Shown here: in pieces, positions 1-34,289 of the stretch
Layout: every line of letters begins with the position of its first letter
Numbering within the stretch: the stretch's first letter is position 1
Assembly: GCA_009914755.4 (NCBI GenBank)
Contig: CP068257.2
Span: 41,984,001 to 42,048,000, forward strand
Reading direction: 5' to 3'
DNA from: the human T2T-CHM13v2.0 reference genome, Homo sapiens
DNA: 64,000 nt
Notes under the pieces: generated by a model
What the model was told of the DNA's origin: nothing
The model's input: the letters and a program-made list of their open reading frames with translations, nothing else
Database searches by the model: none
Made by a program: the position numbers and the translations under genes

Positions 1-1858
<1,858 letters not shown>

Positions 1859-1865
1859 CACTTAC

Positions 1866-1998
1866 TCGTGACAATTCCAGCCAGAGCGAAAACAAACTGA
1901 CTTTCATCCGAATCCAGCTCCTGGACATCACCGTCTAACGACTTCACAAAACTCTCCATTGTTTGACCAGTGATGCTGAAAAACTTCAAAGCTTTATC
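1866..1998 (-). CDS. HSF2BP: HSF2BP exon 5 (DKALKFFSITGQTMESFVKSLDGDVQELDSDESQFVFALAGIVT + 1 nt); further exons lie left of the window
   Basis: The reverse complement reads CTTTCAG|GAT AAA GCT TTG AAG TTT TTC AGC ... GTC ACG A|GTAAGT. Confidence 0.9.
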
Positions 1999-3404
1999 CT
2001 GAAAGTTTGAAAATCAGAGTGTCATATCTTTTTACAGACACTAGTGTGAAAACATTTTAAAAGTGCAGGATACAGAAGATTCTAGTTTTAATTGTAGAAT
2101 ATTGTAAAATCTATTCCCTCATTAAAAGTTCCCATTAAAAGAACAGAGAAAGCAGCTTGAGGCATGCAGGAGCAACAAAAACTACCCTGAAGATTGGTGG
2201 ACTCTTCACACGCATAAATATGATATAGGACAAATGTACATGATGATGAAAGTAAATGGGAAGAATTCACTCAAAATGTAATAAAAATATACTAGAAAAA
2301 CATGCTGCCTATTTGCTCTGGGCATTAAACCAGAGGTGTTCAAACCTTTAGCATAACTTTTTTCAAAAAAAAAAATCTTAATGAAAACATGTAAAAGAGG
2401 TAAAGACTGGCTCCTCTGGTAGTTTAAATCTTCATCACTTGGCAAAAAGCATTTCCAAGTTTGAACCTTTGAGTTACTTCCTTTGGGGTGCTAGAGTTCT
2501 GAAGAAGAATTTTAAAACCAATGTACATTTTAACCCAGTTAAAAAATTGGAAATATTTGCATTTACAAATGATATAAGAAAACTTCATGGATGATCAAAT
2601 AATCTAAAACTGGGTTGTGGTGATGGTTAATGCAACTCTAAAAATTTGCTAAAAACCACTAAATTGTACATTTACAATCTTACAGTATGTAAATTAAACC
2701 TAATAAAGCTCAACAAACTTTTAAAAACACATTTAGTCTTTCCACCTAAAGTCAAACACAACTGTTATTTCTATTAGCAGTAACTAATTTCTCACTGGTT
2801 TCCTGCCACACGTCCCCCTCTTCACCTTCATTTCCAGTCATGATCACGCCATGCTCCCAGAGTCAAACACCGATCTTTTTTGGCTCCTCTTGTCCCCTCC
2901 AGGTGCCCACTCTGCCCGGCCATCGCATCTGCCTCAACTGCCACAGCTCTCATACATGTTCCTTCTTTCCCATCTCCCCTGCAGAGGGCCGAGCTCACTC
3001 CAGCCAGACCAGCTAGAATGACCACCTCATCAGTCATCCTGTGTAGACGCGATGTGCCACAACTCCACCTCCTAATCCATCCTCACCCACTGTCAGGTGA
3101 ATCTTTCTAAAATTCTGCTCTTATCCTATCACTTTTATTGAAAAACCCTTAGGGAAAATCCAGTCTTCCCACCTACAGAATGAATCACCAACCTGGTATT
3201 CAAGGTCCCAAAGTCACATCCCAACCTACGTTTAAGCTTTACCTCCCCACTACTCTATGACATTAACTCTCCACTGTGTCAACTGACCTACTCACTGTCC
3301 TAAAACAAACCCACCCATTTTCTGCCATTTCTACCTATTCATCAAGGCCCATTTCAAATTTATCCCCTTCTGTGAAGTTCCCTGACAAATGCCTGCACGC
3401 ATGC

Positions 3405-4030
3405 ATACATGTGCGTGTGCACGCTCCCACACACACACATGCTCCCACACACCCACACGCTCCCACACACACGATCCCACATACACAGGCTCACAGGCAC
3501 ACACACTCCCCCCCCACACACGCTCCCCACACACACACTCCCACACACACAGGCTCCCACATACACACACATGCTCCCACACACACACACGCTCCCCCCC
3601 CACACACGCTCCCACATACACACGCTCCCACACACACACACGCTCTCCCCACACACACGCTCCCCCAAACACACACACGCTCCCACACACACACTCACAC
3701 AGTCTCACACACACACGCTCCCCCACACACACACATGCTCCCCCACACAAACACACATACGATCCCACATACACAGGCTCACACACACACACACACACTC
3801 CCCCACACACACGCTCCCCCCACACACACACACAGGCTCCCACATACACACACACGCTCCCACACACACACTCCCCCACACACACATGCTCCCATACACA
3901 CACGCTCCCACACACACACGCTCCCCCCCCACACACACACACTCCCCCACACACACATGCTCCCACACACACACACAGTCACACACACATGCACATGCTC
4001 AAACACACATGCTCACACACACACGCTGCC
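3405..4030. repeat. Compound minisatellite of (CA)n interleaved with GCTCCC(C)n / CAGGCTCC / ATGCTCC units, about 620 bp
   Basis: Dozens of degenerate units such as CACACACACGCTCCCACACA. This generates long artefactual ORFs in several frames on both strands (HTHAPTHTH..., CVCGGVCVC...). Confidence 0.9.
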
Positions 4031-4034
4031 ACAC

Positions 4035-4412
4035 ACACACACAGTTGAACCTTGAAAACAAGGGTTTGAACTGCACAGGTCCACTTACACAAGAATTTTC
4101 TTCAGTAAAAGTTACACCAAGTGTGTCTGCTGCTCCAGCCTCCCCTTCCACCTCCTCCACCTCTACCACCCTTTAGACAGCAATGCCAACCCAACCACTC
4201 CTCTTCCTCCTCCTCTTCAGCCTACTCAATTTGAAGATGATGAGGGGGAAGACCTTCATGATGATCTAACATACAAAAAATGTGTTAATCAACGATTTAT
4301 GTTGTCAGTAAGGCTTCCAGCCAACAGTAGAGAGAGTCAAAAGTTCTATGTGGCTTTTCGACTGTGCAGGGGGTCAGCGCCTCCAACCTCCATGTTGCTC
4401 AAGGTTCTGCAT
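4035..4412 (-). mobile_element. Small non-autonomous Tigger-type MITE (MER2/Tigger2-like)
   Basis: Terminal inverted repeats GTTGAACCTTGAAAACAAGGGTTTGAACTGCACAGGTCCACTTACAC ... CGACTGTGCAGGGGGTCAGCGCC...ATGTTGCTCAAGGTTCTGC. The internal GAAGATGATGAGG/CCTCCTCC region is typical of MER2. The family assignment is from memory. Confidence 0.45.
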
Positions 4413-4417
4413 CTATA

Positions 4418-4490
4418 TGTATGTGTGTGTGTGTGTATGTATAAACACACACACACATCTACATACATGTATATATGTTAGATAACACAA
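4418..4490. repeat. (TG)n...(CA)n mirror dinucleotide repeat with TATG/TACA interruptions
   Basis: GTATGTGTGTGTGTGTGTATGTATAAACACACACACACATCTACATACATG. Confidence 0.8.
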
Positions 4491-4815
4491 TATTCAATAA
4501 ATACTATATTAACCATGAGATAATATATATAAAAGCACTTTTGATCTTCTTAAACACATGTAAAGTATTAATACTGAAGTGGTAATATGTCCACATATAC
4601 CACAAGGTCTCCTGGAGAGAAGGGATCTTATTTCATTCCCTTTGCATCAGGTTACAATGAACCATATACGATAAGTATTCAATAACTAGCTGATGAGTGA
4701 ACAAAAGAAAATGGAAAGATATGGACTTAGTCTTTAAATGCCTTAATAAGCTATATGCTCTAATTTACACAAGCAGTAATCAACAATATCTGGAGAGCCC
4801 ACTGACCATACTTAC

Positions 4816-4965
4816 TCCTCCCAAAATGGCCTTGACGACTTCCTCACTGCTGGAGACACCCCACAAGAGGGTACACGCTGCTGCTCCCATTTCTGTACAA
4901 TACTCTGCCTGCTGCAGGAGTTGCTGCTTCGCTTCATTCAACTGCTGTCGAAGAGCCAGTTTCTC
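4816..4965 (-). CDS. HSF2BP: HSF2BP exon 4 (EKLALRQQLNEAKQQLLQQAEYCTEMGAAACTLLWGVSSSEEVVKAILGG)
   Basis: The reverse complement reads TTTTAG|GAG AAA CTG GCT CTT CGA CAG ... GGA GGA|GTAAGT. The exon is 150 nt and in frame. Confidence 0.92.
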
Positions 4966-7165
4966 CTAAAAGCAAAACAAAATTGAAAAATAAATAATAG
5001 CATTCAACCTTGATATATCTTTATTACATTTCCTCTTTCACAAAGATATTTATTAAAGAAATGCATGTATAATTATAGAAAATAGTTGCAAATGAAAGCT
5101 AGTCCTAAGAGAACCATAATCTGTATCTACAAAAGAAATTTCAAAGGCAAAAATATTTGAGAAATATCTGAGGAAAGAACATACTACCACATTATGGTTG
5201 ATAAACCCACAGAGCTGAATTCATCTGCTTTAAGTAACTACATGAAATATCTCAAGCCCCAAGTAACTATACCCAGAACCAGCACCAACCGAGGCTTCTG
5301 AACAAAAACAACCTCACAAAGCAATTTACCCAGAAAGCAACATTTCTAAGACAGGAGACTGCCTCCTCCAAATGGCTCACTCCATTGAAAAAACGCCATC
5401 TGCCAGAGGCAGACACCAAATAAAAGGCACTTGGACATCAGGATTTGTAAAAAAACAAGTACTTTAGAAAAACTCATCCTGTATAAACGTATCCTTAACT
5501 CCTCATGAGAATATTGCCAAAGGTGCCAGTAAATATAAAATACAATCTGTGAAGCTAAACAGGGAAAGAAAACCTAAAACCTAAGACCAGGTAGGAAAGA
5601 TGGGAGGAGGGGCAAAAAGAAGTGTGAAGGCTGGGAGTCCTATTCATGCCCTGGTGCAGCAAGCCAGTGCCAGTCTAAGAAGAAGATGGAGGCTAGGAAG
5701 AGTTTCCTACTCTCCCACCAGCAGTGTCTGAGGTGACCTGTAGCTGGGCAAGTCTCCACCATGGCACTCTTCACAAGGGAAACACAGGGAATGGCCGTCC
5801 TGATGGCCCTCCTGACAACACAAGCACACTTCGAGGATTCACCTTGAGTGTACTGCTAGAGTGATGGGGGGCTTCCTGTCCTCTCCAACCACCAGCACCA
5901 GGTACCTGAAATTCCCTTAAAAGGTGATAGCATTTCCTGATTTAATAAGACAAAAACTGAAAAATATAAAACCCCAGTTAAATTCATTTATACCAAATGT
6001 AATTAGTTACATAAACCACAAAATTAAAGTATATTAAATGCTGTAGATTTTCTTTTAGAGAGATAAATACAAGACAAAGTAGAGGGGGCTTTTCACCCCC
6101 TGGAGGAAAAAGGGAGCTTTGGAGCCACAAATCAAAACTGTTGACCTCATAACTTGGATTAGGGTGGCCCACTCATAGTTACCTGGAGACAATGCGTTTG
6201 GCACACAGAGATTCATACACATTCATACGTATATGCACACATGTATTTAAGAAAAAAATGGCCACTGAGCCTCTGGCACATGCTAATACTGCATCATGTG
6301 ATCTGTCAGCTCCGGGTTTTTAATGTCTTCATTATAGCAACAATCTGGACTCCTAGATTCATCCTTTCAGTGTACGTAGCTGAACACAAGTCATGGTGAC
6401 ACATGAAGAAAACTATGTCACAGCACTTCCTTTTGGAATTCTAGCTTTTCTCACAACTTAAGCTGTCTGCATCTCAATTAGTCAGGATATGGTGGTTCTT
6501 CTGCACGACCACAAAAAGACTACTGAGAAGAACCAGGAAGGACTTTGCTCACTACAGTCACATTTGGTAGTTGCAGGAGGATATTCCCCAACGCAGGGTT
6601 CCACACATAGTATAATAATATCAAAAAAAAAACAAACAAACCTCAAAGAAAATCATAGCATTCCCAGTAACATCAAAAATAAGAATAATTTTTTAAGGTG
6701 CAAGACCTATACAATGAAAACTACAAAGCATTACTGAGAGAAAGTAGAGCTAAATAAAGAGATACACCATGTTCAAAAATTGGCAGGATGTCAATTCTTC
6801 CCAAACTGATCTACAGATTCAACACAATCCCTATCAAAATCTCAGCAGACTTCTGTACAAAGTGATAATCTGATTCTAAAATTTCTATGGAAATTCAAGA
6901 CAGAATATCTAAAAAATTGTCTGAAAAAGAAGAACAATGTTAGAAGACTAACAGTGCCTGATTTAGAGGAAAAAACTAACTATAAACCTACCGAAATAGA
7001 ACCATTGTGGTATTGCTATAAGGATGGACATATAGATCAGTGAAACACTGACATGTCAACTGATTTTAACAAAGGTGCCAATGCAATTCAATGGAAAAAG
7101 GATAGTCTTTTCAACAACTGATGCTAAAACAACCGAATATTCATATGCAAAAAAAAAATAATTCA

Positions 7166-7735
<570 letters not shown>

Positions 7736-7736
7736 A

Positions 7737-7815
7737 AAGAAAAAAAAGAAAGAAAAGAAAAGAAAAGAAAAGAAAAGAAAAGAAAAGAAAAGAAAAGAAA
7801 AGAAAAGAAAAGAAA
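7737..7815. repeat. (GAAAA)n / (AAAAG)n microsatellite, about 14 units, on the Alu tail
   Basis: GAAAGAAAAGAAAAGAAAAGAAAAG... Confidence 0.9.
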
Positions 7816-8164
7816 AAACGAAGGGGAAAAAAAGAGAATCATAAACATAAATGTAAAATTTCTCAAAAAAATCGTTATGACCATAGGTTAGGCAAATATT
7901 TCTTAGATATCACAAAATCATGACCTATTAAAAAATAATAATAAAGTAAGTTTCATCAAAACTTAAAAGTTCTACTCTTCAAAAGATACCTTATAAAGAA
8001 AGTAAAAAGACACGCCACAGGCTAAGAGAAAGTACTTCTAATCACATATCTAAAAAAGGACTTGTGTCCAGATTAAAGAATTCTTACACATCAATAAGAC
8101 AACCCAATTAAAAATGGGCAAAAGATTTGAAGAGATATTTAACCAAAGAAAACATATAAATGTG

Positions 8165-8458
<294 letters not shown>

Positions 8459-27800: not shown

Positions 27801-28129
27801 AAGATCCTTAACTTACACAGTAAGTACTTAATTTTCAGAATAGAGCTTTTCAGTTATCAAAAGTATAAAATTCTTCTGCCAATGAAGAGAGAGAGAAAGA
27901 GAAGCTGTTAATAGATGCTCAGAAAACTGGCAACCAACTTATACCAACTTACATATGTCCAAGTCACTACACTGAGGAAACCTCCCTTTCTTAGGTCATC
28001 AGACTCTCCCAAATATCATCACAAGGACTGTAAGAGTACCTTAAAATTCGTTTACAATTATTTACCTAGGGTAAATCTGCTAGAACAAATTACTGTTACC
28101 ACCAATGACTGCTGAAAATGAAGACTCAC

Positions 28130-28280
28130 TTTTTTCTACAATCTTTAATTTCTGGAAGCTCTCCAGCACCTCCCCATTTAGTATTCTGGGTAAGAAGTCC
28201 CGTATTTGCATCACTTCAGTTGTCAGCCGTTCCAGATCCTTCTTTCTGACTTTAACAAATTCCTCTTTAGTTCCCATGTG
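28130..28280 (-). CDS. HSF2BP: HSF2BP exon 2 (HMGTKEEFVKVRKKDLERLTTEVMQIRDFLPRILNGEVLESFQKLKIVEK + 1 nt)
   Basis: ORF track 28080-28277(-) gives MGTKEEFVKVRKK.... Acceptor TTTTAG sits immediately upstream (plus-strand CT at 28281-28282). Donor GTGAGT follows GAA AAA A, with the last exon base at 28130. Confidence 0.92.
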
Positions 28281-28511
28281 CTAAAAGAACAAGCAGATCT
28301 TATTATATTTCTCTTCACATGAGAAAAAAAACAACAGCTCAAGTTAACTTGCTTTTCTTTCACACCTCTTATGTGCATCGTTGTTTCAAATCATGTCTCT
28401 ACCTACTGTATATTCTGCTATAGATATATTTTATGTACATACAAACATTTTGAAAGCTGAAGCTTCAGCCTTCAAAAAGGGAGCCAGATGTTAAAAATAA
28501 TAAGGACAAAC

Positions 28512-28630
28512 AGGCCAGGCATGGTGGCTCACACTTGAAATCCCAGGAATTTGGGAGGCCAGGAGTTCAAGACCAGTCTGAGCAACATGGAGAGACCCTG
28601 TCACTACAAAAATATGAAAACGTGCCCAGG
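28512..28630 (+). mobile_element. FLAM-like Alu monomer (HSF2BP intron 1)
   Basis: AGGCCAGGCATGGTGGCTCACACTTGAAATCCCAGGAATTTGGGAGGCCAGGAGTTCAAGACCAGTCTGAGCAACATGG. Confidence 0.7.
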
Positions 28631-28631
28631 A

Positions 28632-28910
28632 GGCCCGGCGCAGTGGCTCACGCCTGTAATCCCAGCACTTTGGGAGGCCGAGGCGGGTGGATCACCTGAG
28701 GTCAGGAGTTCAAGACCAGCCTGACCAGTATGGTGAAACTCCATCTCACTAAAAATACAAAAATTAGCCAGGTGTGGTGGCCGGCGCCTGTACGCAGCAG
28801 GCTGACACGGGAAGAAGGCTTGAGCTCAGGAGTTGGAGGCTGCAGTGAGCTATGATCGTGCCACTGCACTCCAGTCTGGGCAACAGAGCAAGACCACGAA
28901 AAAGAAAAGT
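28632..28910 (+). mobile_element. AluS (HSF2BP intron 1, 320 bp upstream of exon 2 on the minus strand)
   Basis: AGGCCCGGCGCAGTGGCTCACGCCTGTAATCCCAGCACTTTGGGAGGCCGAGGCGGGTGGATCACCTGAGGTCAGGAG... Confidence 0.85.
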
Positions 28911-29603
28911 CATACAAGAGCTCTATTCCTAAAAGTCAAAGAAAACGCCTGCAACTTTTTATCACTGCAGCACCAAACTAATCAGGAGGAAAAGGAAGTC
29001 ATCTGGTTTCCTACTGGGTTTGCCAAGCCCTCCGCCCGTGATCTCATCTACTATTCACCCCAAGCCTCCAAGATTGTCTAGATGGAAATTAAGGCACGGG
29101 AGCTAGATGACTCTCAATGCAGCACAATTAATAACGGGTGGAAGCAGGATGTGAACACGGATCTGGCCCCAGTCCAAGCGCCTTCTCCATCGCATGCAAT
29201 CAGTTACAGTTATAAAATCGATGGAGGGCAGATTCTCTCTAAGCCTGACGCTAAGTCCCGAAGCAGGGGGCCAGGGCCTTCGGAGGGGAACTGGGCTTCC
29301 ACGGAGCAGAGAAGAGAGTGACCATCCATCCCACGCTCCCATGCCCGCTTTGGCGCCACTGAGTGCCCCCACCACGCGCAGCCTCACAGACCGGGTCCCC
29401 GCGTGGGTTTGGAGGCGAAGTCGCCTCCCGCCCCAGGTCTCCACCCCGCTCCGGCCCAGCCCACGCCGTTAGGGGAGGAAGTCTCCAGGCTTCCCCCAAG
29501 CACGCGACAGCGAGCCGTCTCCGAGCGCACGGGGCGAGGCCCTGAGGGGAGCGAATGGCGACGGTTCAAACACGCTGGCGTCGGCCAGGGCTTCCTCACT
29601 AAC

Positions 29604-29639
29604 CCGGCAGGCCTCCTCAGCGGCGCCCGCTTCGCCCAT
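29604..29639 (-). CDS. HSF2BP: HSF2BP coding exon 1 (CDS part only: MGEAGAAEEACR); the 5'UTR continues upstream at higher coordinates and its TSS is unknown
   Basis: Reverse complement of 29604-29639 is ATGGGCGAAGCGGGCGCCGCTGAGGAGGCCTGCCGG. It is followed on the minus strand by donor GTTAGT (29603-29602). Phase 0 joins to the next exon starting CAC ATG GGA. Confidence 0.85.
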
Positions 29640-30558
29640 GGCCGCTGCCGCCTCCGCTCCGTTCGCCTGAGCGTCGGCGCGCCCTCTGACCCCTCACGCC
29701 AGAAAGCGCGGGAACGAATCCACGCCGGGGGTCGGGAACGGAGAGCCGCCAGGCCCAAACCTCCCAGAATTTGCGCAGTATTCTCGGCCTAGAGAGCGAG
29801 GAGTGGCCTTGGCGAGGTCCCTCTTTGGCTCTTCTGGCTTAGCCGGGGTTTTAAACTTGTTATCTGCAAAGCAGAAGGAAAGTCAGCCCCTGATGTAAGT
29901 GTCAAGTAAAATAAATCGGATGGGTCCTTTCCTGTTTGGCGAGGAATGCTACACTAAGGGGGACTGCGTTCAAATGGGCAGTCTTTGCTGGAAACCTCGC
30001 CTCCGCGCGCCTTCCCTCGCTCGGATTCAGGCGCTTTTACGTTAAGGGTTGAATTTTTGTGTCAACAGGCACCTCGGGAGGTCGCCTAGACAACTGAGCG
30101 GAGCAACTGAGATAACCCCCGCTACGTGTGGAGTGACCTAGTCCATTAACTTGCCCCAGCACGCCCGCTGAGTCCGCAAAATATAGGATGGCCTCGGGTT
30201 TTAGATGAACCCAAAGCTAAGATTTCTTCCCTCTCTGGAATTAGCAAGCAGCCCGCCCTGCCCAACTCCCCTGGAAGCGCGCGTGCTCGCCAGGCCTCGG
30301 GACGCCTGCGCGGGCGCCCTTGCACTGGCACCAGGGCTCCGGGGTAGGGGCGCACCGATCTGCCCAAGCCTCTGCAGGCACTGGAGGAAGGCGAGCCCTC
30401 CACCCGCTCAACAGGCCCCAGTGCCGGCCTTTCCTTCCAGTCTCAACTCCACCCGGGGGCCCGGGGGCTCCACAGTTAAAAACTCCACGCCACGGAGATC
30501 GCAGGTAAGCTGCTGGCTCAACGAGGTGTGCTAAATGGGATTAAAGATCCTGGACCGT

Positions 30559-30866
30559 GGCCAGGCGCGGCGGCTCAAGCCTGTAATCCCAGCGATCAGG
30601 GAGGCCGCCGCGGGAGGATTGCTTGAGCCCAGGAGTTTGAGACCAGCTTGGGCAACATAGCGAGACACCGTCTCTACAAAAAAATAACAAATAGTGGGGC
30701 GTGATGGCGCGCGCCTGTAGTCTCAGCTACTTGGGCGGTCGAGATGGGAGGATCGATCGAGTCTGGGAGGTCGAGGCTGCAGTGAGCCAGGATCACCGCC
30801 AAGATCGCGCCACTGCATTCCAGCCTGGGCGACAGAGGGAGACCCTGTCTCAAAAACAAACAAAAA
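30559..30866 (+). mobile_element. Alu (J/S-like) embedded in the CpG island between the two genes; 16-bp TSD AAAGATCCTGGACCGT / AAAAATCCTAGACCGT
   Basis: GGCCAGGCGCGGCGGCTCAAGCCTGTAATCCCAGCGATCAGGGAGGCCGCCGCGGGAGG.... About 22 CpGs survive by hand count. The TSD is at 30543-30558 and 30863-30878. Confidence 0.85.
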
Positions 30867-31207
30867 ATCCTAGACCGTTTACAAACAGCCTTCCGTCTCT
30901 TCCTGGTCAAGTCCTAACCCTGGCTAACCTCGCCGTCTACAGCCTGAATTTTGGCAACCGAAAGGCAGCGCCGGCGCCACGTGCACACGGGCTGGGCCGC
31001 TCCGCCAGCTGCCAGGGCCACTGCCGCGCTCACTCCCAGAGCGCGCTGCGAGCCGCGGCGCCTTTGTGACGCCATCAGCCCGCGCGCCGCCGCCGCCGCC
31101 TTCTGTGCAGTCGCGGCCCGGGCGGACGGTGGCTGGCTGCTCCGCAGCGCTCGGCTGGCTGCAGCGGCACCGCGGGTTGCGCGGCCGGGGATGCTCCAGC
31201 GGGCGCG

Positions 31208-31337
31208 ATGGCCCCCGCCATGCAGCCGGCCGAGATCCAATTTGCCCAGCGGCTGGCGTCCAGCGAGAAGGGCATCCGGGACCGAGCGGTGAAGAAGCTG
31301 CGCCAGTACATCAGCGTGAAGACGCAGAGGGAGACAG
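31208..31337 (+). CDS. RRP1B: RRP1B exon 1 coding part (MAPAMQPAEIQFAQRLASSEKGIRDRAVKKLRQYISVKTQRETG-); the 5'UTR starts upstream, roughly 31050-31100, not resolved
   Basis: ATG at 31208 has a strong Kozak context (G at -3, G at +4). The ORF track gives MAPAMQPAEIQFAQRLASSEK.... Donor CAG|GTGGGC lies at 31338. Confidence 0.93.
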
Positions 31338-31825
31338 GTGGGCGCACGGCCGCGGTCAGCCGCGCCACATGGCGGGCCGGGGGCCGGGGCTGGGGCTAGG
31401 GCCAGGGCCCCGGCACGGAATGCGGCTTCCACGTGTTGTCGTGACACCCAGCGTGTGCTTCGGTTTCCGCGCTGCCGGAACCGCTTCTTGCTGTGTCTAG
31501 TGCCTTTTTACACTTAAGGAAACGGGTTGAGGGGGTTCCGTTACTTATGAAAGTCACAGTAAGCGGGGAAGCTGAGAAAAGACCCACATGGGTCCGATTC
31601 CCCAGCCGGCATCTCGAATCACTGGGCTGCCCTGATTTGCCCTGGTGTCCGGTCGGTGATTGCCGCCTTCCTTTGACCAGCACCTTTACGTGACGGGGCT
31701 GCAGGAGAGAAGACAGACAAAATCACTACCCTCGAGGATCTATTAGTAATAAAGCAAGGAGGCAAACAGGCAAATAAAGTAGACCTTGTGTAAGTGTAGT
31801 AAAGGAAATGAAAACCAGGTAGCAG

Positions 31826-32140
<315 letters not shown>

Positions 32141-34289
32141 CAGATAATAGCAAAAAGGGAAGGAGGTTGCTCTTCTTGATAGGCTGTTCTGGGAAGGCCT
32201 CTCTGGGCTGATAATCAGCTCAGATCTGAAGAGAAATGAGCGGAAACCGCCTATGCAGAGGCAGGAAAGAGCTTCACGTGCCCTAGGAGTGGTTTGAAAG
32301 ACCAATAAGTTGGGGTTGGGGGGGCGAGTGTTATGAGATGAAGTTGGAGATGTAGGCAGTGGCCAGATCACACAGGGCTTTGTAGTTTAGATTTTAACGG
32401 CACTGCTGTTGGATGATTTCATTTACCTGATCCAAAAATACTTTCTATAAACTCTTGAGTGAGCCCATACAATATGAACTACAATGTGTAATAGAGGTTT
32501 TAAGATAAAGTTTTATTTAGTTACTGATGGTACTAATACATTTAGAATCTGCTTAAAAGAACAGATATTATCTCCCCCATCACTGACATTCTCAGTTTGT
32601 TTTATTTTTAAGAGAAATCACCAGACTACCCAAAAAAAGAAAATACACTTTCCTGGGAAGTCTGATAGAAAAAGGAATAAAGACCAAAATTCCTGACTTT
32701 GATTCTGTTAAGAATCTCCCCAAGAGATTTTGTTTAGTCTCACAGTTCCAGGTACCCCATATATGCTGGTGGTTTCTAAACCTAAATTGTTGTCCCAGCC
32801 CATTCCTACTTGCAGCTCGGATGTGCCTTGCTAGCCTGGCTTCTCTACCTGGCACCTCACACTCAGGATGCCAAAAAAAGTTCTGTTTTCTTTCCCCGAA
32901 ATCCTGTTCTCTGCTGCTGCTCCACTGCCACCTGTTTTCTTTTCTTTTGGTTGCTGGTTCCCACCAGCCATTCAGATTCCAGCCGGACACACGGGATTGT
33001 CCTGGACTCCTCTGAATTCCTCATCCTCTTCCCCTGGCCCACATCCAGTGGGAGGACCCCCGTCCTCCCTCGTTCACCTCCTGATGACATAAATTCTTGA
33101 CCGTGGGCTCTTTGTATCTCACCGAAACTTCTGCGCCCGCATATTCCCCAACTGGTCTCCTTAACTTCACTTGTGTCCCCAGGAATCTGTCCTCCACAGA
33201 CCAGCCCAGGGTCATCTTCCTAAAACAAATCTGATCCCACATCACCAATATTTTTTGAAATTCAGTGTCTGCAAGTCATGATCTGTCCTCAGGTGCTCTT
33301 CCTGCCTAAGCCCCGTGTAACTGCTTCATGTTCCGTCAACAGAATCGGTGATGGTTCTTGGTGTACAGCACACAATTTCTCACCTCTCTGCCTTTGCTTC
33401 TCCTGTTCACTCTGCAAAGAATCCCACACCTTCTTCACTGCCAGCATTCAGTTCAGTATCACTTCCTTCAAAAAGCCTCGCCTAGCATCTTGCCCTACTC
33501 CTCCAGGGTTCTAAAACATCCATTGTGTCTCTGTTGTAGCACTTAGCTACATTGCTTCTTAATTATCAATGTGTCATCCTTCTCCCGAAACACCGTAAGC
33601 TTCCATCTGTTTTCTTAGCCAGAAGTGGGAGTACATGCAACCGTAAAAGGTCTTGGCCTGTACAAGAGTGGAAGACCAGAGGCAATACTTACGGTGCTAA
33701 GACAGCCTAGACAGAGCCTTTTGCTCAAACCCTTTGGTGAGCCAGCCCAGGATTTGCAAATGCAGAGGTTATGCGGGGGCCTAAGACCAGTTTACACCAG
33801 TGCTCCAGAGTCCTGTCTGGTTAGTGCCTATCACACCCAGAGTGACTTGTCTTGTATATCTTGTTCACCACCACATTGCATGGAGTACAGTGGACCTTCA
33901 GAAAATAACTCCGCAGCATGAACGTCGTGGACAGTGATAATGGGACAAGAAAACACAAGGTCTCCACCACAGCTATGCCCCATCACAATTACAGCACAAG
34001 TTTGGAAATAACTTGGCCTGACATTCGACTCCCGATGACAGGCTCCAACTTTTCTGCATCTTGTCTTAGGCATCATAAAGGAAATGTGAGCTATCACTCT
34101 TCCTGAAACATGAGCTGTTCTGCAGCAACATCAATAGATAGCTTTGTCATTTTAAAAATAAATTGGAAATCTTTGTATTGCTTTAAGTAACAGTGTTGCG
34201 CTCTTGCTTTAACTGTTCAAGTTGGGTGCTCACAGTCATAAAATGATCACTCTCCATGGCTTTCATCCATAAGAGCTTATTTGTCCCAA

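What the first reader, a model, noticed from the sequence alone, without database searches (positions are those of the whole stretch)
29250..31500. Shared CpG-island promoter for a meiosis-restricted gene (HSF2BP) and a housekeeping nucleolar gene (RRP1B)
The two start codons face away from each other only 1569 bp apart (29639 minus, 31208 plus) inside one CpG island with no TATA box.

HSF2BP (MEILB2) is a BRCA2-binding meiotic recombination factor with germline-restricted expression. RRP1B is broadly expressed. One island therefore has to support two very different expression programmes.

The sequence carries motifs used by the PRC1.6 germline-gene repressor complex (E2F6 plus MGA/MAX):
- a canonical E-box CACGTG at 30978-30983
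- a palindromic E2F-like element AAAGCGCGGGAA (TTCCCGCGCTTT on the minus strand) at 29703-29714, about 65 bp upstream of the HSF2BP ATG in the minus sense
- a GC box at 31120-31125

I could not place either TSS from sequence. The HSF2BP 5'UTR might start just upstream of 29640, or from a non-coding first exon nearer 31000. Candidate minus-strand donor: CGGCGAG|GTTAGC at about 30930. Candidate acceptor: CGACGCTCAG|GCGAACGG at about 29667.
Basis: partly seen in the sequence, partly recalled or inferred. Interest (0 to 1): 0.55.

Follow-up and report, generated by a model that had tools for sequence, protein, structure and literature searches.

The report
HSF2BP–RRP1B head-to-head promoter region
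This is the annotated human HSF2BP/RRP1B divergent gene pair: the coordinates are right, but the proposed E2F6/PRC1.6 silencing of HSF2BP has already been published for the mouse gene, so it is an ordinary, already explained locus.

Summary
The layout is real. The HSF2BP ATG is at 29639 (-) and the RRP1B ATG at 31208 (+), 1569 bp apart. There is no TATA box, and standard criteria call one CpG island (29072-32211). That island has two dense, conserved cores (29313-29879 and 30847-31578). A non-conserved bridge containing an AluJ joins them.

Only one of the three cited motifs holds up. The E2F6 core TCCCGC (29703-29714) is conserved in seven eutherians. The E-box at 30978 is absent even from macaque and marmoset. 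The GC box is not conserved, and the E2F element is not palindromic.

The PRC1.6 idea is published for mouse Hsf2bp:
- E2F6 and MGA bind its promoter.
- It is derepressed about 80-fold in E2f6-/- embryos.
- Promoter methylation falls from 87% to 37%.
- Rrp1b has its own separate E2F6 peak.

In human leukocytes a sharp methylation boundary has been reported inside the HSF2BP island.

The proposed upstream non-coding exon is supported: the donor at 30929 is conserved and a macaque gene model uses it. Its acceptor is the conserved TTTGCAG|AT at 29863, not 29667.

Verdict: two separable promoter cores, not one shared promoter. Already known; low interest.

The parts
29072..32211 (.). One formal CpG island (3.1 kb, GC 0.61, CpG o/e 0.84, 243 CpG) spanning the 5' ends of both genes.
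   Evidence: Sliding-window calls by Gardiner-Garden/Frommer and Takai-Jones criteria. Two embedded Alus keep nearly all their CpGs.
29313..29879 (-). HSF2BP-proximal dense CpG core (GC 0.67, o/e 0.89). It is orthologous to the mouse region that E2F6 binds and that is methylated in somatic cells.
   Evidence: Stricter 200-bp criteria. Cow and zebra match at 77-78%. Dahlet bisulfite primers map to the orthologous rat interval.
29604..29863 (-). HSF2BP exon 2, the first coding exon. Acceptor AG at 29865-29864, 224-nt 5'UTR, ATG at 29639, codons 1-12, donor CGG|GTTAGT after 29604.
   Evidence: Translation and tblastn. The 3' splice site CTTTCCTTCTGCTTTGCAG|ATAAC keeps its AG in six of seven species; fox is not aligned over this stretch. 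The macaque 463-aa model can be rebuilt only with this acceptor.
29703..29714 (-). E2F6-type site, TTCCCGCGCTTT on the gene strand (core TCCCGC = plus-strand GCGGGA, 29708-29713). It lies 64-75 nt upstream of the ATG, inside exon 2.
   Evidence: CGTTCCCGCGCTTTCTGGCGT is identical in human, macaque, marmoset and cow and near-identical in zebra and fox. Rat has TTCCCGCAC. Mouse E2F6 ChIP summit lies 77 bp from the Hsf2bp TSS.
29678..29693 (-). Conserved block GGGGTCAGAGGGCGCG just downstream of the E2F6 site. Candidate proximal, mouse-type initiation region (inferred).
   Evidence: Its core GGGTCAGAGG is identical in six eutherians; the whole block is identical only in human, zebra and fox, and rat is diverged (GTGTTAGAGAG). 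The mouse RefSeq TSS deduced from Dahlet's tables lies between the ChIP summit and the ATG. No TSS data were tested here.
29864..30928 (-). HSF2BP intron 1, the sparser bridge of the island. Mostly not conserved outside primates.
   Evidence: blastn shows no cow, fox or rat match for about 29974-30862. Zebra has one 80-bp match at 30105-30184. Boundaries come from the conserved donor and acceptor.
30559..30866 (+). AluJ element between the two cores. It retains 22 CpG (o/e 0.82).
   Evidence: blastn against Alu consensus sequences written from memory. The 37 Alus outside the island average 8.0 CpG, and the other AluJ copies have 0-8. Present in macaque and marmoset.
30929..31075 (-). HSF2BP upstream exon 1, non-coding in human. 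The donor GAG|GTTAGC follows 30929. The 5' end was not determined; the macaque model starts its CDS at the position equivalent to 31075.
   Evidence: The donor scores 6.06 bits against 6.21 for the known exon-2 donor, the top two of 71 GT sites. GTTAGC is conserved in six non-rodent eutherians. Macaque CDS start. In human the ATG at 31075 runs into a stop after splicing.
30978..30983 (.). E-box CACGTG, inside HSF2BP exon 1 and the RRP1B upstream core. Specific to the human lineage.
   Evidence: Macaque has CACTCG and marmoset CAAGCA. Cow, zebra, fox and rat have no E-box here.
31061..31087 (.). Conserved core element TTTGTGACGCCATCAGCCCGCGCGCCG (CRE-like TGACGCCA overlapping a YY1-like GCCATC). 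Candidate shared element of the divergent RRP1B/HSF2BP-exon-1 promoter.
   Evidence: ACGCCATCA is invariant in seven eutherians (cow has TTACGCCATCA). Opossum has TGACGTCATCA. Function is inferred.
31120..31125 (+). GC box GGGCGG.
   Evidence: Present in human. Macaque has TGGCGG; absent in fox and rat.
31191..31292 (+). Conserved upstream ATG 17 nt before the RRP1B start, opening a 33-codon out-of-frame uORF that overlaps the main start.
   Evidence: Same position and length in seven eutherians. Opossum has a uATG at -16. Whether it is included in the mRNA was not tested.
31208..31337 (+). RRP1B first coding exon (ATG 31208; ...RETG, donor G|GTGGGC).
   Evidence: Translation, tblastn, RRP1B orthologues.
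30847..31578 (+). RRP1B dense CpG core (GC 0.67, o/e 0.99).
   Evidence: Conserved in cow (77%), fox (79%) and zebra (85%).

Best explanation
The interval holds the 5' ends of the human HSF2BP (minus strand) and RRP1B (plus strand) genes. It works as two separable promoter cores inside one germline-unmethylated CpG-rich domain, not as a single shared promoter.

**Core A (about 29600-29880).** This is the ancestral HSF2BP germline promoter and first coding exon. It carries a deeply conserved E2F6 site (TCCCGC) about 65 nt upstream of the ATG. By orthology with mouse, E2F6 and MGA (PRC1.6) bind here in early embryonic cells. They repress the gene and seed CpG methylation that keeps it silent in somatic tissue. 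In germ cells the region is unmethylated and active.

**Core B (about 30930-31340).** This is the constitutively unmethylated RRP1B housekeeping promoter, built around an invariant TGACGCCATC element. It also fires in the antisense direction. That produces a short non-coding HSF2BP exon 1 (donor at 30929), which splices over a 1.07-kb intron containing an Alu into exon 2 at 29863.

**Shown here:** sequence anatomy, conservation, splice-site consistency with a macaque gene model, and CpG retention.

**Taken from papers:** E2F6/MGA binding, derepression and methylation in mouse, and a methylation boundary in human leukocytes.

**Inferred:** the human site is bound by E2F6, and low-level somatic HSF2BP mRNA comes from core B.
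For: **Gene identity and structure**
- Established.
- The E2F6 core is conserved in human, macaque, marmoset, cow, zebra, fox and rat, within a block of about 72% mean identity.

**Mouse data: Dahlet 2021, PMC8195999**
- Separate E2F6 peaks lie 77 bp from the Hsf2bp TSS (not overlapping an annotated CGI) and 176 bp from the Rrp1b TSS (overlapping a CGI).
- Hsf2bp is up log2FC 6.39 in E2f6-/- embryos.
- A 974-bp DMR at Hsf2bp goes from 0.866 to 0.367 methylation.

**Mouse data: Mochizuki 2021, PMC8639735**
- Hsf2bp is one of 137 methylation-sensitive germline genes.
- It is one of 40 such genes bound by MGA and E2F6.

**Other mouse reports**
- KDM5C binds the Hsf2bp promoter, and the gene is derepressed in Kdm5c-KO.
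- Hsf2bp is a germline reprogramming-responsive gene.

**Human data**
- A 400-bp amplicon in the HSF2BP island has 28 CpGs methylated on both alleles, followed by a sharp boundary. This was seen in leukocytes, which still express HSF2BP.
- HSF2BP transcripts were found in all cancer cell lines tested.

**Upstream exon**
- Donor conservation and acceptor conservation.
- The macaque 463-aa model is reproduced only by that donor and acceptor pair.
- Zebra and marmoset models also start upstream, near or beyond the RRP1B start.

**Two cores and the germline state**
- Two cores are evident. Rat and fox have two separate islands.
- Alus inside the island keep 22 CpGs, against about 8 elsewhere.
Against: - No human TSS, ChIP or methylome data could be examined here. 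E2F6 occupancy of the human site is extrapolated from mouse.
- The TCCCGC hexamer occurs at chance frequency in this interval, so the case rests on conservation and orthology.
- The location of the published human bisulfite amplicon within the window is ambiguous. It could start near 29274, 29468-29503, 30729-30774 or 31172.
- The protein search for N-terminally extended HSF2BP isoforms found none. The upstream exon therefore rests on gene-model coordinates and conservation.
- The zebra model cannot be resolved to a unique splice pair.
- Mouse ES cells express Hsf2bp despite E2F6/MGA binding, so repression is incomplete there.
Confidence: 0.75

Rival explanations
1. One shared bidirectional core promoter in a single island drives both genes. 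HSF2BP's germline restriction is imposed on that shared promoter by PRC1.6, recruited jointly through the E-box at 30978 (MGA/MAX) and the E2F site at 29703.
For: - The island is formally single.
- A conserved donor and the primate and zebra gene models put an HSF2BP exon within about 130-270 bp of the RRP1B ATG.
- Mouse Hsf2bp is listed as having both an E-box and an E2F motif within 3 kb of its TSS and as bound by MGA.
Against: - The E-box at 30978 is absent from macaque, marmoset, cow, zebra, fox and rat.
- It lies 1.3 kb from the E2F site.
- In mouse the two genes have separate E2F6 peaks 1.75 kb apart, and only the Hsf2bp side is an E2F6-dependent methylated region.
- Rat and fox have two separate islands.
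- PRC1.6 plus methylation on a truly shared core would also silence RRP1B.
Confidence: 0.12
2. The E2F-like element serves RRP1B rather than HSF2BP, as an upstream E2F1-responsive activating site. RRP1B is reported to be a direct E2F1 target. The E-boxes at 30978 and 31430 would then be MYC/MAX or USF sites, as is typical of nucleolar ribosome-biogenesis genes.
For: - A review citing Paik et al. 2010 states that RRP1B is a direct transcriptional target of E2F1.
- E2F1 and E2F6 recognise overlapping motifs (established knowledge).
- Both E-boxes sit in the RRP1B core or its first intron, and the one at 31430 is shared with macaque.
Against: - The site is about 1.4 kb upstream of the RRP1B start and inside HSF2BP exon 2.
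- Its conservation tracks the HSF2BP exon block.
- In mouse, loss of E2F6 changes Hsf2bp strongly. Rrp1b did not appear in the expression or DMR tables that could be searched, though two of those files were truncated.
- The original E2F1 paper could not be read.
Confidence: 0.08
3. The motifs are incidental matches in CpG-rich DNA. HSF2BP's tissue specificity would be set mainly by germline activators (for example meiotic-entry factors) acting on an otherwise generic CpG-island promoter.
For: Hexamer counts are at chance level. Dahlet et al. themselves note that TCCCGC occurs in 2153 of 2533 E2F6 peaks and does not by itself specify repression.
Against: - A 21-nt block around the site is identical across primates and cow.
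- Mouse genetics shows E2F6 is required for silencing and methylation.
Confidence: 0.05

Closest known systems
Mouse Hsf2bp promoter, an E2F6/PRC1.6-bound, DNA-methylation-sensitive germline gene (Dahlet et al. 2021; Mochizuki et al. 2021)
   Same: - Orthologous gene with the same head-to-head neighbour (Rrp1b).
- Same conserved TCCCGC site about 60 nt upstream of the start codon (rat used as proxy).
- CpG-rich first coding exon.
   Different: - In rodents the Hsf2bp region is a weak, separate CpG cluster not annotated as an island. In primates, cow and zebra it merges formally with the RRP1B island.
- The mouse RefSeq TSS is proximal, whereas primate gene models add an upstream exon at the RRP1B core.
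- Human E2F6 occupancy was not tested here.
Mammalian bidirectional CpG-island promoters (divergent TSS pairs less than 1 kb apart, usually TATA-less)
   Same: - Divergent orientation.
- TATA-less and CpG-rich.
- An invariant YY1/CRE-like element lies between the RRP1B start and the HSF2BP exon-1 donor.
   Different: - The two start codons are 1569 bp apart.
- The second gene also has its own conserved proximal core 1.2-1.4 kb away.
- The distance between TSSs could not be measured here.
Other E2F6-motif germline genes (Tuba3a, Smc1b, Stag3, Slc25a31, Majin, Meioc)
   Same: - A TCCCGC element close to the TSS or ATG of a meiosis gene.
- A CGI that is methylated in somatic cells in mouse.
- Derepression in E2f6-/-.
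   Different: - Here the promoter abuts a housekeeping gene's island.
- No conserved E-box lies near the site in the species examined.

Membership tests
Bidirectional CpG-island promoter | Two protein-coding genes on opposite strands, arranged head to head. | tested here: met
   The ATGs at 29639 (-) and 31208 (+) belong to HSF2BP and RRP1B. The same arrangement is seen in macaque, marmoset, cow, zebra, fox and rat.
Bidirectional CpG-island promoter | Transcription start sites less than 1 kb apart. | not testable with these tools
   - No CAGE or mRNA data were available.
- Indirect evidence: the macaque and zebra HSF2BP models start their CDS 130 and 268 bp from the RRP1B ATG.
- In mouse the two E2F6-marked TSSs are about 1.65 kb apart (deduced).
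- My recollection of human RefSeq coordinates puts the TSSs about 60 bp apart. This was not verified.
Bidirectional CpG-island promoter | CpG island, no TATA box. | tested here: met
   One formal island, 29072-32211. No TATAWA in 29250-31500, but only 0.11 is expected.
PRC1.6/E2F6-repressed methylation-sensitive germline promoter | E2F6 motif TCCCGC at the promoter. | tested here: met
   Plus-strand GCGGGA at 29708-29713, conserved at the homologous position in seven eutherians.
PRC1.6/E2F6-repressed methylation-sensitive germline promoter | E-box CACGTG for MGA/MAX near the promoter (optional; it defines a subclass). | tested here: inconclusive
   - The human E-boxes at 30978 and 31430 are 1.3-1.8 kb from the HSF2BP ATG and lie in the RRP1B core or intron.
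- The one at 30978 is not conserved even in macaque.
- Mouse is listed as E-box positive within 3 kb.
PRC1.6/E2F6-repressed methylation-sensitive germline promoter | Occupancy by E2F6, MGA, PCGF6 or L3MBTL2. | not testable with these tools
   Reported for the mouse orthologue only. The human HEK293 dataset supplement was not held.
PRC1.6/E2F6-repressed methylation-sensitive germline promoter | Derepression and loss of promoter methylation when E2F6 is removed. | not testable with these tools
   Reported for mouse: log2FC 6.39, and DMR methylation 0.866 to 0.367.
PRC1.6/E2F6-repressed methylation-sensitive germline promoter | Promoter unmethylated in the germline but methylated in somatic cells. 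| tested here: inconclusive
   - The germline-unmethylated state is inferred from CpG o/e of 0.89-0.99 and from CpG-retaining Alus.
- Somatic methylation with a sharp boundary is reported in human leukocytes, but the amplicon cannot be placed uniquely in the window.

The most novel reading that the evidence does not exclude
In primates and some other non-rodent mammals, HSF2BP has a second, methylation-proof entry point. This is a non-coding exon 1 fired by the antisense side of the RRP1B housekeeping promoter and spliced into exon 2. Such transcripts would read through the methylated, E2F6-marked proximal core. They could explain the low but widespread HSF2BP mRNA in human leukocytes and cancer cell lines, an expression that can impair BRCA2 function. 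The E-box gained in the human lineage inside exon 1 (30978) could then couple this leak to MYC/MAX or MGA/MAX activity.
Probability: 0.25. Interest if true: 0.4.

Novelty: already known. Interest (0 to 1): 0.13.

Why it matters
HSF2BP (MEILB2) is a meiotic BRCA2 partner, and ectopic expression in tumour cells impairs homologous recombination. How it is kept off in somatic cells is therefore of medical interest. The finding adds no new biology. The useful residue is a cleaner map of the human region:
- which of the cited motifs is conserved (only the E2F6 site);
- where exon 2 really begins;
- that a methylation-insensitive upstream exon may account for somatic leakage.

Tried and rejected
- **N-terminally extended isoforms.** A protein search with the conceptual exon1+exon2 N-terminal extension returned only fragments and one unspliced ORF. 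It confirmed no junction.
It keeps the upstream ATG in frame in both human and macaque. But it gives a 392-aa product, not the 463 aa of the macaque model, and it has a weak pyrimidine tract. Rejected in favour of 29863.
- **Zebra 453-aa model.** It could not be resolved to a single splice pair.
- **Rfam scan of 28000-33000.** No RNA family found.
- **Repeat scan.** Only Alu-derived repeats and an Alu target-site duplication.
- **Failed locus look-ups.** Dog, mouse lemur and elephant RRP1B loci were not on record.
- **Papers not held.** The supplement of the human PRC1.6 study (Stielow 2018) did not contain gene lists. The E2F1-RRP1B paper (PMC2825430) was not held. A cancer-germline gene survey supplement did not list HSF2BP.
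- **MGA-loss eLife supplement.** It lists mouse Hsf2bp at log2FC -1.97, but in a comparison I could not identify. Not used.
- **Placing the published human bisulfite amplicon.** CpG count alone left four possible positions.
- **One literature query was badly designed** and returned mostly irrelevant papers.
Full report
**1. What is in the sequence**

The window is the human HSF2BP/RRP1B head-to-head locus.
- The minus strand from 29639 reads ATG GGC GAA... = MGEAGAAEEACR, followed by a GTTAGT donor.
- The plus strand from 31208 reads MAPAMQPAEIQFAQRLASSEKGIRDRAVKKLRQYISVKTQRETG, followed by GT.
- tblastn with the two human proteins, recalled from memory and so only a guide, places four further HSF2BP exons downstream on the minus strand. 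It places about sixteen RRP1B exons on the plus strand out to about 63 kb.
- A database search with the RRP1B sequence returns RRP1B orthologues from about a hundred mammals.
- The start codons are 1569 bp apart, as stated.
- All three motifs are at the stated coordinates, and there is no TATA-like heptamer in 29250-31500.

**2. One island or two?**

Both the Gardiner-Garden/Frommer and the Takai-Jones criteria merge everything from 29072 to 32211 into one island (GC 0.61, CpG o/e 0.84).

The island is not uniform, however.
- Stricter 200-bp criteria resolve two dense cores: 29313-29879 (o/e 0.89) and 30847-31578 (o/e 0.99).
- The cores are separated by a sparser stretch (29801-30555: GC 0.58, o/e 0.69) and an AluJ (30559-30866).
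- Cross-species blastn gives the same picture. Human 29594-29973 and 30863-31389 match cow at 77-78%. The second block also matches fox at 79%. In zebra, matches of 77-85% cover both blocks. The middle has no match in cow, fox or rat, and only one 80-bp match in zebra.
- The formal island is single in macaque, marmoset, cow and zebra, but splits into two in rat and fox.

The AluJ inside the bridge keeps 22 CpGs (o/e 0.82). An AluS just inside the island's right edge (31825-32105) also keeps 22. The 37 Alus outside the island average 8.0 CpGs, and the other five AluJ copies have 0-8. Methylated CpGs decay quickly in the germline. The whole 3-kb domain has therefore probably been unmethylated in the germline since before the human-marmoset split. 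This is an inference.

**3. Are the motifs more than chance?**

By count, no. In first-order Markov simulations of the interval:

| Motif | Observed | Expected |
|---|---|---|
| TCCCGC/GCGGGA | 3 | 2.8 |
| GC boxes | 4 | 5.2 |
| CACGTG | 2 | 0.36 (P about 0.05) |

Conservation separates them.
- **E2F site.** The block CGTTCCCGCGCTTTCTGGCGT is identical in human, macaque, marmoset and cow. Zebra has CGCTCCCGCGCTTTCTGGCGT and fox has CGTTCCCGCGCTTTCGGGCC. Rat keeps TTCCCGCAC. The element is not a palindrome, contrary to the finding.
- **E-box at 30978.** Macaque has CACTCG and marmoset CAAGCA. It is absent from cow, zebra, fox and rat.
- **GC box at 31120.** Macaque has TGGCGG, and it is missing in fox and rat.
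- **Second CACGTG at 31430** (RRP1B intron 1). Shared only with macaque.

**4. Gene structure of the HSF2BP 5' end**

*Donor.* The candidate donor GAG|GTTAGC (last exon base 30929) scores 6.06 bits on an approximate donor matrix that I wrote from memory. The undoubted exon-2 donor CGG|GTTAGT scores 6.21. These are the top two of 71 minus-strand GT sites. GTTAGC is conserved in human, macaque, marmoset, cow, zebra and fox.

*Gene models.* The loci fetched around RRP1B orthologues list CDS ranges.
- Macaque HSF2BP (463 aa) starts 130 bp from the RRP1B ATG, at the position equivalent to human 31075.
- Zebra (453 aa) starts 268 bp away.
- The marmoset model starts inside RRP1B intron 1.

*Acceptor.*
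- A textbook acceptor, CTTTCCTTCTGCTTTGCAG|ATAAC (exon start 29863), has 0.83. Its AG is conserved in the six species aligned there.
- A brute-force search of macaque donor-acceptor pairs reproduced an open, in-frame extension of the right size only with GAG|GTTAGC plus TTTGCAG|ATA. That gives 126 + 337 = 463 aa. The 29666-type acceptor would give 392 aa.

*Consequences in human.*
- The same splice puts the upstream ATG (31075) out of frame, and it hits a stop. Exon 1 is therefore non-coding and the canonical ATG at 29639 stands.
- HSF2BP exon 2 is 29863-29604 and intron 1 is 30928-29864.
- The E2F6 site lies inside exon 2, in the 5'UTR.

**5. What is already published**

*Dahlet et al. 2021 (PMC8195999), supplementary tables.*
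- An E2F6 ChIP-seq peak in mouse ES cells has its summit 77 bp from the Hsf2bp TSS and is flagged as not overlapping an annotated CpG island.
- A separate peak lies 176 bp from the Rrp1b TSS, 1752 bp away, and does overlap an island.
- Hsf2bp rises from about 0.3 to about 27 expression units in E2f6-/- embryos (log2FC 6.39, P = 7e-235).
- A 974-bp region at Hsf2bp drops from 86.6% to 36.7% methylation in E2f6-/- E8.5 embryos.
- The paper's bisulfite primers map, with species mismatches, onto the rat interval that contains the ATG exon and the TCCCGC site.

*Other papers.*
- Mochizuki et al. 2021 (PMC8639735) list Hsf2bp among 137 DNA-methylation-sensitive germline genes. They also list it among the 40 that are bound by MGA and E2F6 and methylated in ES cells.
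- A KDM5C preprint reports KDM5C at the Hsf2bp promoter and derepression in knockout epiblast-like cells and brain.
- The SLIC-CAGE paper notes Hsf2bp as one of the 45 germline reprogramming-responsive genes.
- For human, Zhang et al. 2009 (PMC2812945) bisulfite-sequenced a 400-bp, 42-CpG amplicon in the HSF2BP island in leukocytes. The first 28 CpGs were methylated on both alleles. A sharp boundary followed, and the last 14 CpGs were methylated according to the rs2838343 genotype. HSF2BP mRNA was detectable from both alleles.
- I could not place that amplicon uniquely.
- HSF2BP transcripts were also found in every human cancer line tested and in mouse ES cells. The gene is therefore not strictly germline-restricted.

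**6. How it most likely works**

*Core A* (29600-29880) is the ancestral germline promoter and first coding exon. E2F6, as part of PRC1.6 with MGA, binds the conserved TCCCGC in the early embryo. It represses the gene and triggers CpG methylation that maintains silencing in somatic cells. These steps are shown in mouse and inferred for human. A conserved GGGGTCAGAGGGCG block just downstream of the site may be the proximal initiation region (inferred).

*Core B* (30930-31340) is the RRP1B housekeeping promoter. An invariant ACGCCATCA motif (TGACGCCATCA in six of seven species; CRE-like and YY1-like; TGACGTCA in opossum) sits between the RRP1B start and the HSF2BP exon-1 donor. Antisense initiation from this core gives the non-coding exon 1.

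The two expression programmes are thus carried by two physically separate cores with different somatic chromatin states.

Whether somatic HSF2BP mRNA comes from core B is my inference, and it is the one moderately interesting open point. From memory, human RefSeq places the HSF2BP and RRP1B TSSs about 60 bp apart, which would fit core B. I could not verify this.

**7. Rivals**

- *A truly shared core promoter regulated through both the E-box and the E2F site.* Disfavoured because the E-box is not conserved and because mouse has separate peaks and a one-sided DMR.
- *The E2F site acts for RRP1B.* RRP1B is reported to be an E2F1 target, so this cannot be excluded. The site's position inside HSF2BP exon 2 and the mouse genetics argue against it as the main role.
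- *Pure chance.* Excluded for the E2F6 site by conservation, but it is the simplest reading for the E-box and the GC box.

**8. Verdict**

This is a known, annotated locus of low interest.

Noticed in passing
window 30559-30866 and 31825-32120: Two Alus embedded in the CpG island (an AluJ and an AluS) each keep 22 CpGs (o/e 0.82 and 0.86). The 37 Alus outside the island average 8.0, and other AluJ copies have 0-8. This suggests long-term protection from germline methylation across the whole 3-kb domain. The AluS has a recognisable target-site duplication (31801-31821 and 32126-32146).
   Followed up: partly
window 31191-31292: An upstream ATG 17 nt before the RRP1B start opens a 33-codon out-of-frame uORF that overlaps the main start codon. 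Position and length are the same in all seven eutherians examined. Opossum has a uATG at -16. The surrounding GGGGATGCTCCAGCGGGCGCGATGG is highly conserved.
   Followed up: partly
window 31061-31087: Most conserved non-coding block of the RRP1B core: TTTGTGACGCCATCAGCCCGCGCGCCG (CRE-like plus YY1-like). ACGCCATCA is invariant in seven eutherians, and opossum has a perfect CRE, TGACGTCA. A nearby CTCCCAGAGCGCGCTGCGAG (about 31031-31050) loosely resembles a ZNF143-type site, judged by eye only.
   Followed up: partly
window 30978-30983: The CACGTG E-box appears to be a gain in the human lineage (macaque CACTCG, marmoset CAAGCA). It lies inside HSF2BP exon 1, about 230 bp upstream of the RRP1B ATG. 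Apes were not checked.
   Followed up: partly
L001 (rat) 6006-6011: Rat has a TCCCGC motif formed by RRP1B codons 2-4 (GCT CCC GCC). Human has GCC CCC GCC and lacks it. This may explain the separate E2F6 peak 176 bp from the mouse Rrp1b TSS, and it suggests that peak is rodent-specific.
   Followed up: no
L005 (fox) about 3900-4900: The fox intergenic region carries a tandem array. GCCATG/GCCATC recurs roughly every 34-100 bp, often about 67 bp apart. The array is absent from the other species and lengthens the distance between the two genes.
   Followed up: no
L006 (marmoset) 6001-8284: The marmoset HSF2BP gene model starts its CDS inside RRP1B intron 1, so the two annotated genes overlap head to head. 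The first in-frame codons hit a stop if read unspliced, so the model must splice almost at once. It may be an annotation artefact.
   Followed up: no
L004 (opossum) 1-6000: No HSF2BP coding exon is annotated within 6 kb upstream of opossum RRP1B, and the HSF2BP-proximal block has no blastn match there. The tight head-to-head arrangement may be eutherian, or the marsupial intergenic distance may be larger.
   Followed up: no
window 29349-29356: A canonical E2F site, TTTGGCGC, lies in the HSF2BP intron about 250 bp downstream of exon 2. It is shared with macaque but was not found in cow, fox, rat, marmoset or zebra scans.
   Followed up: no
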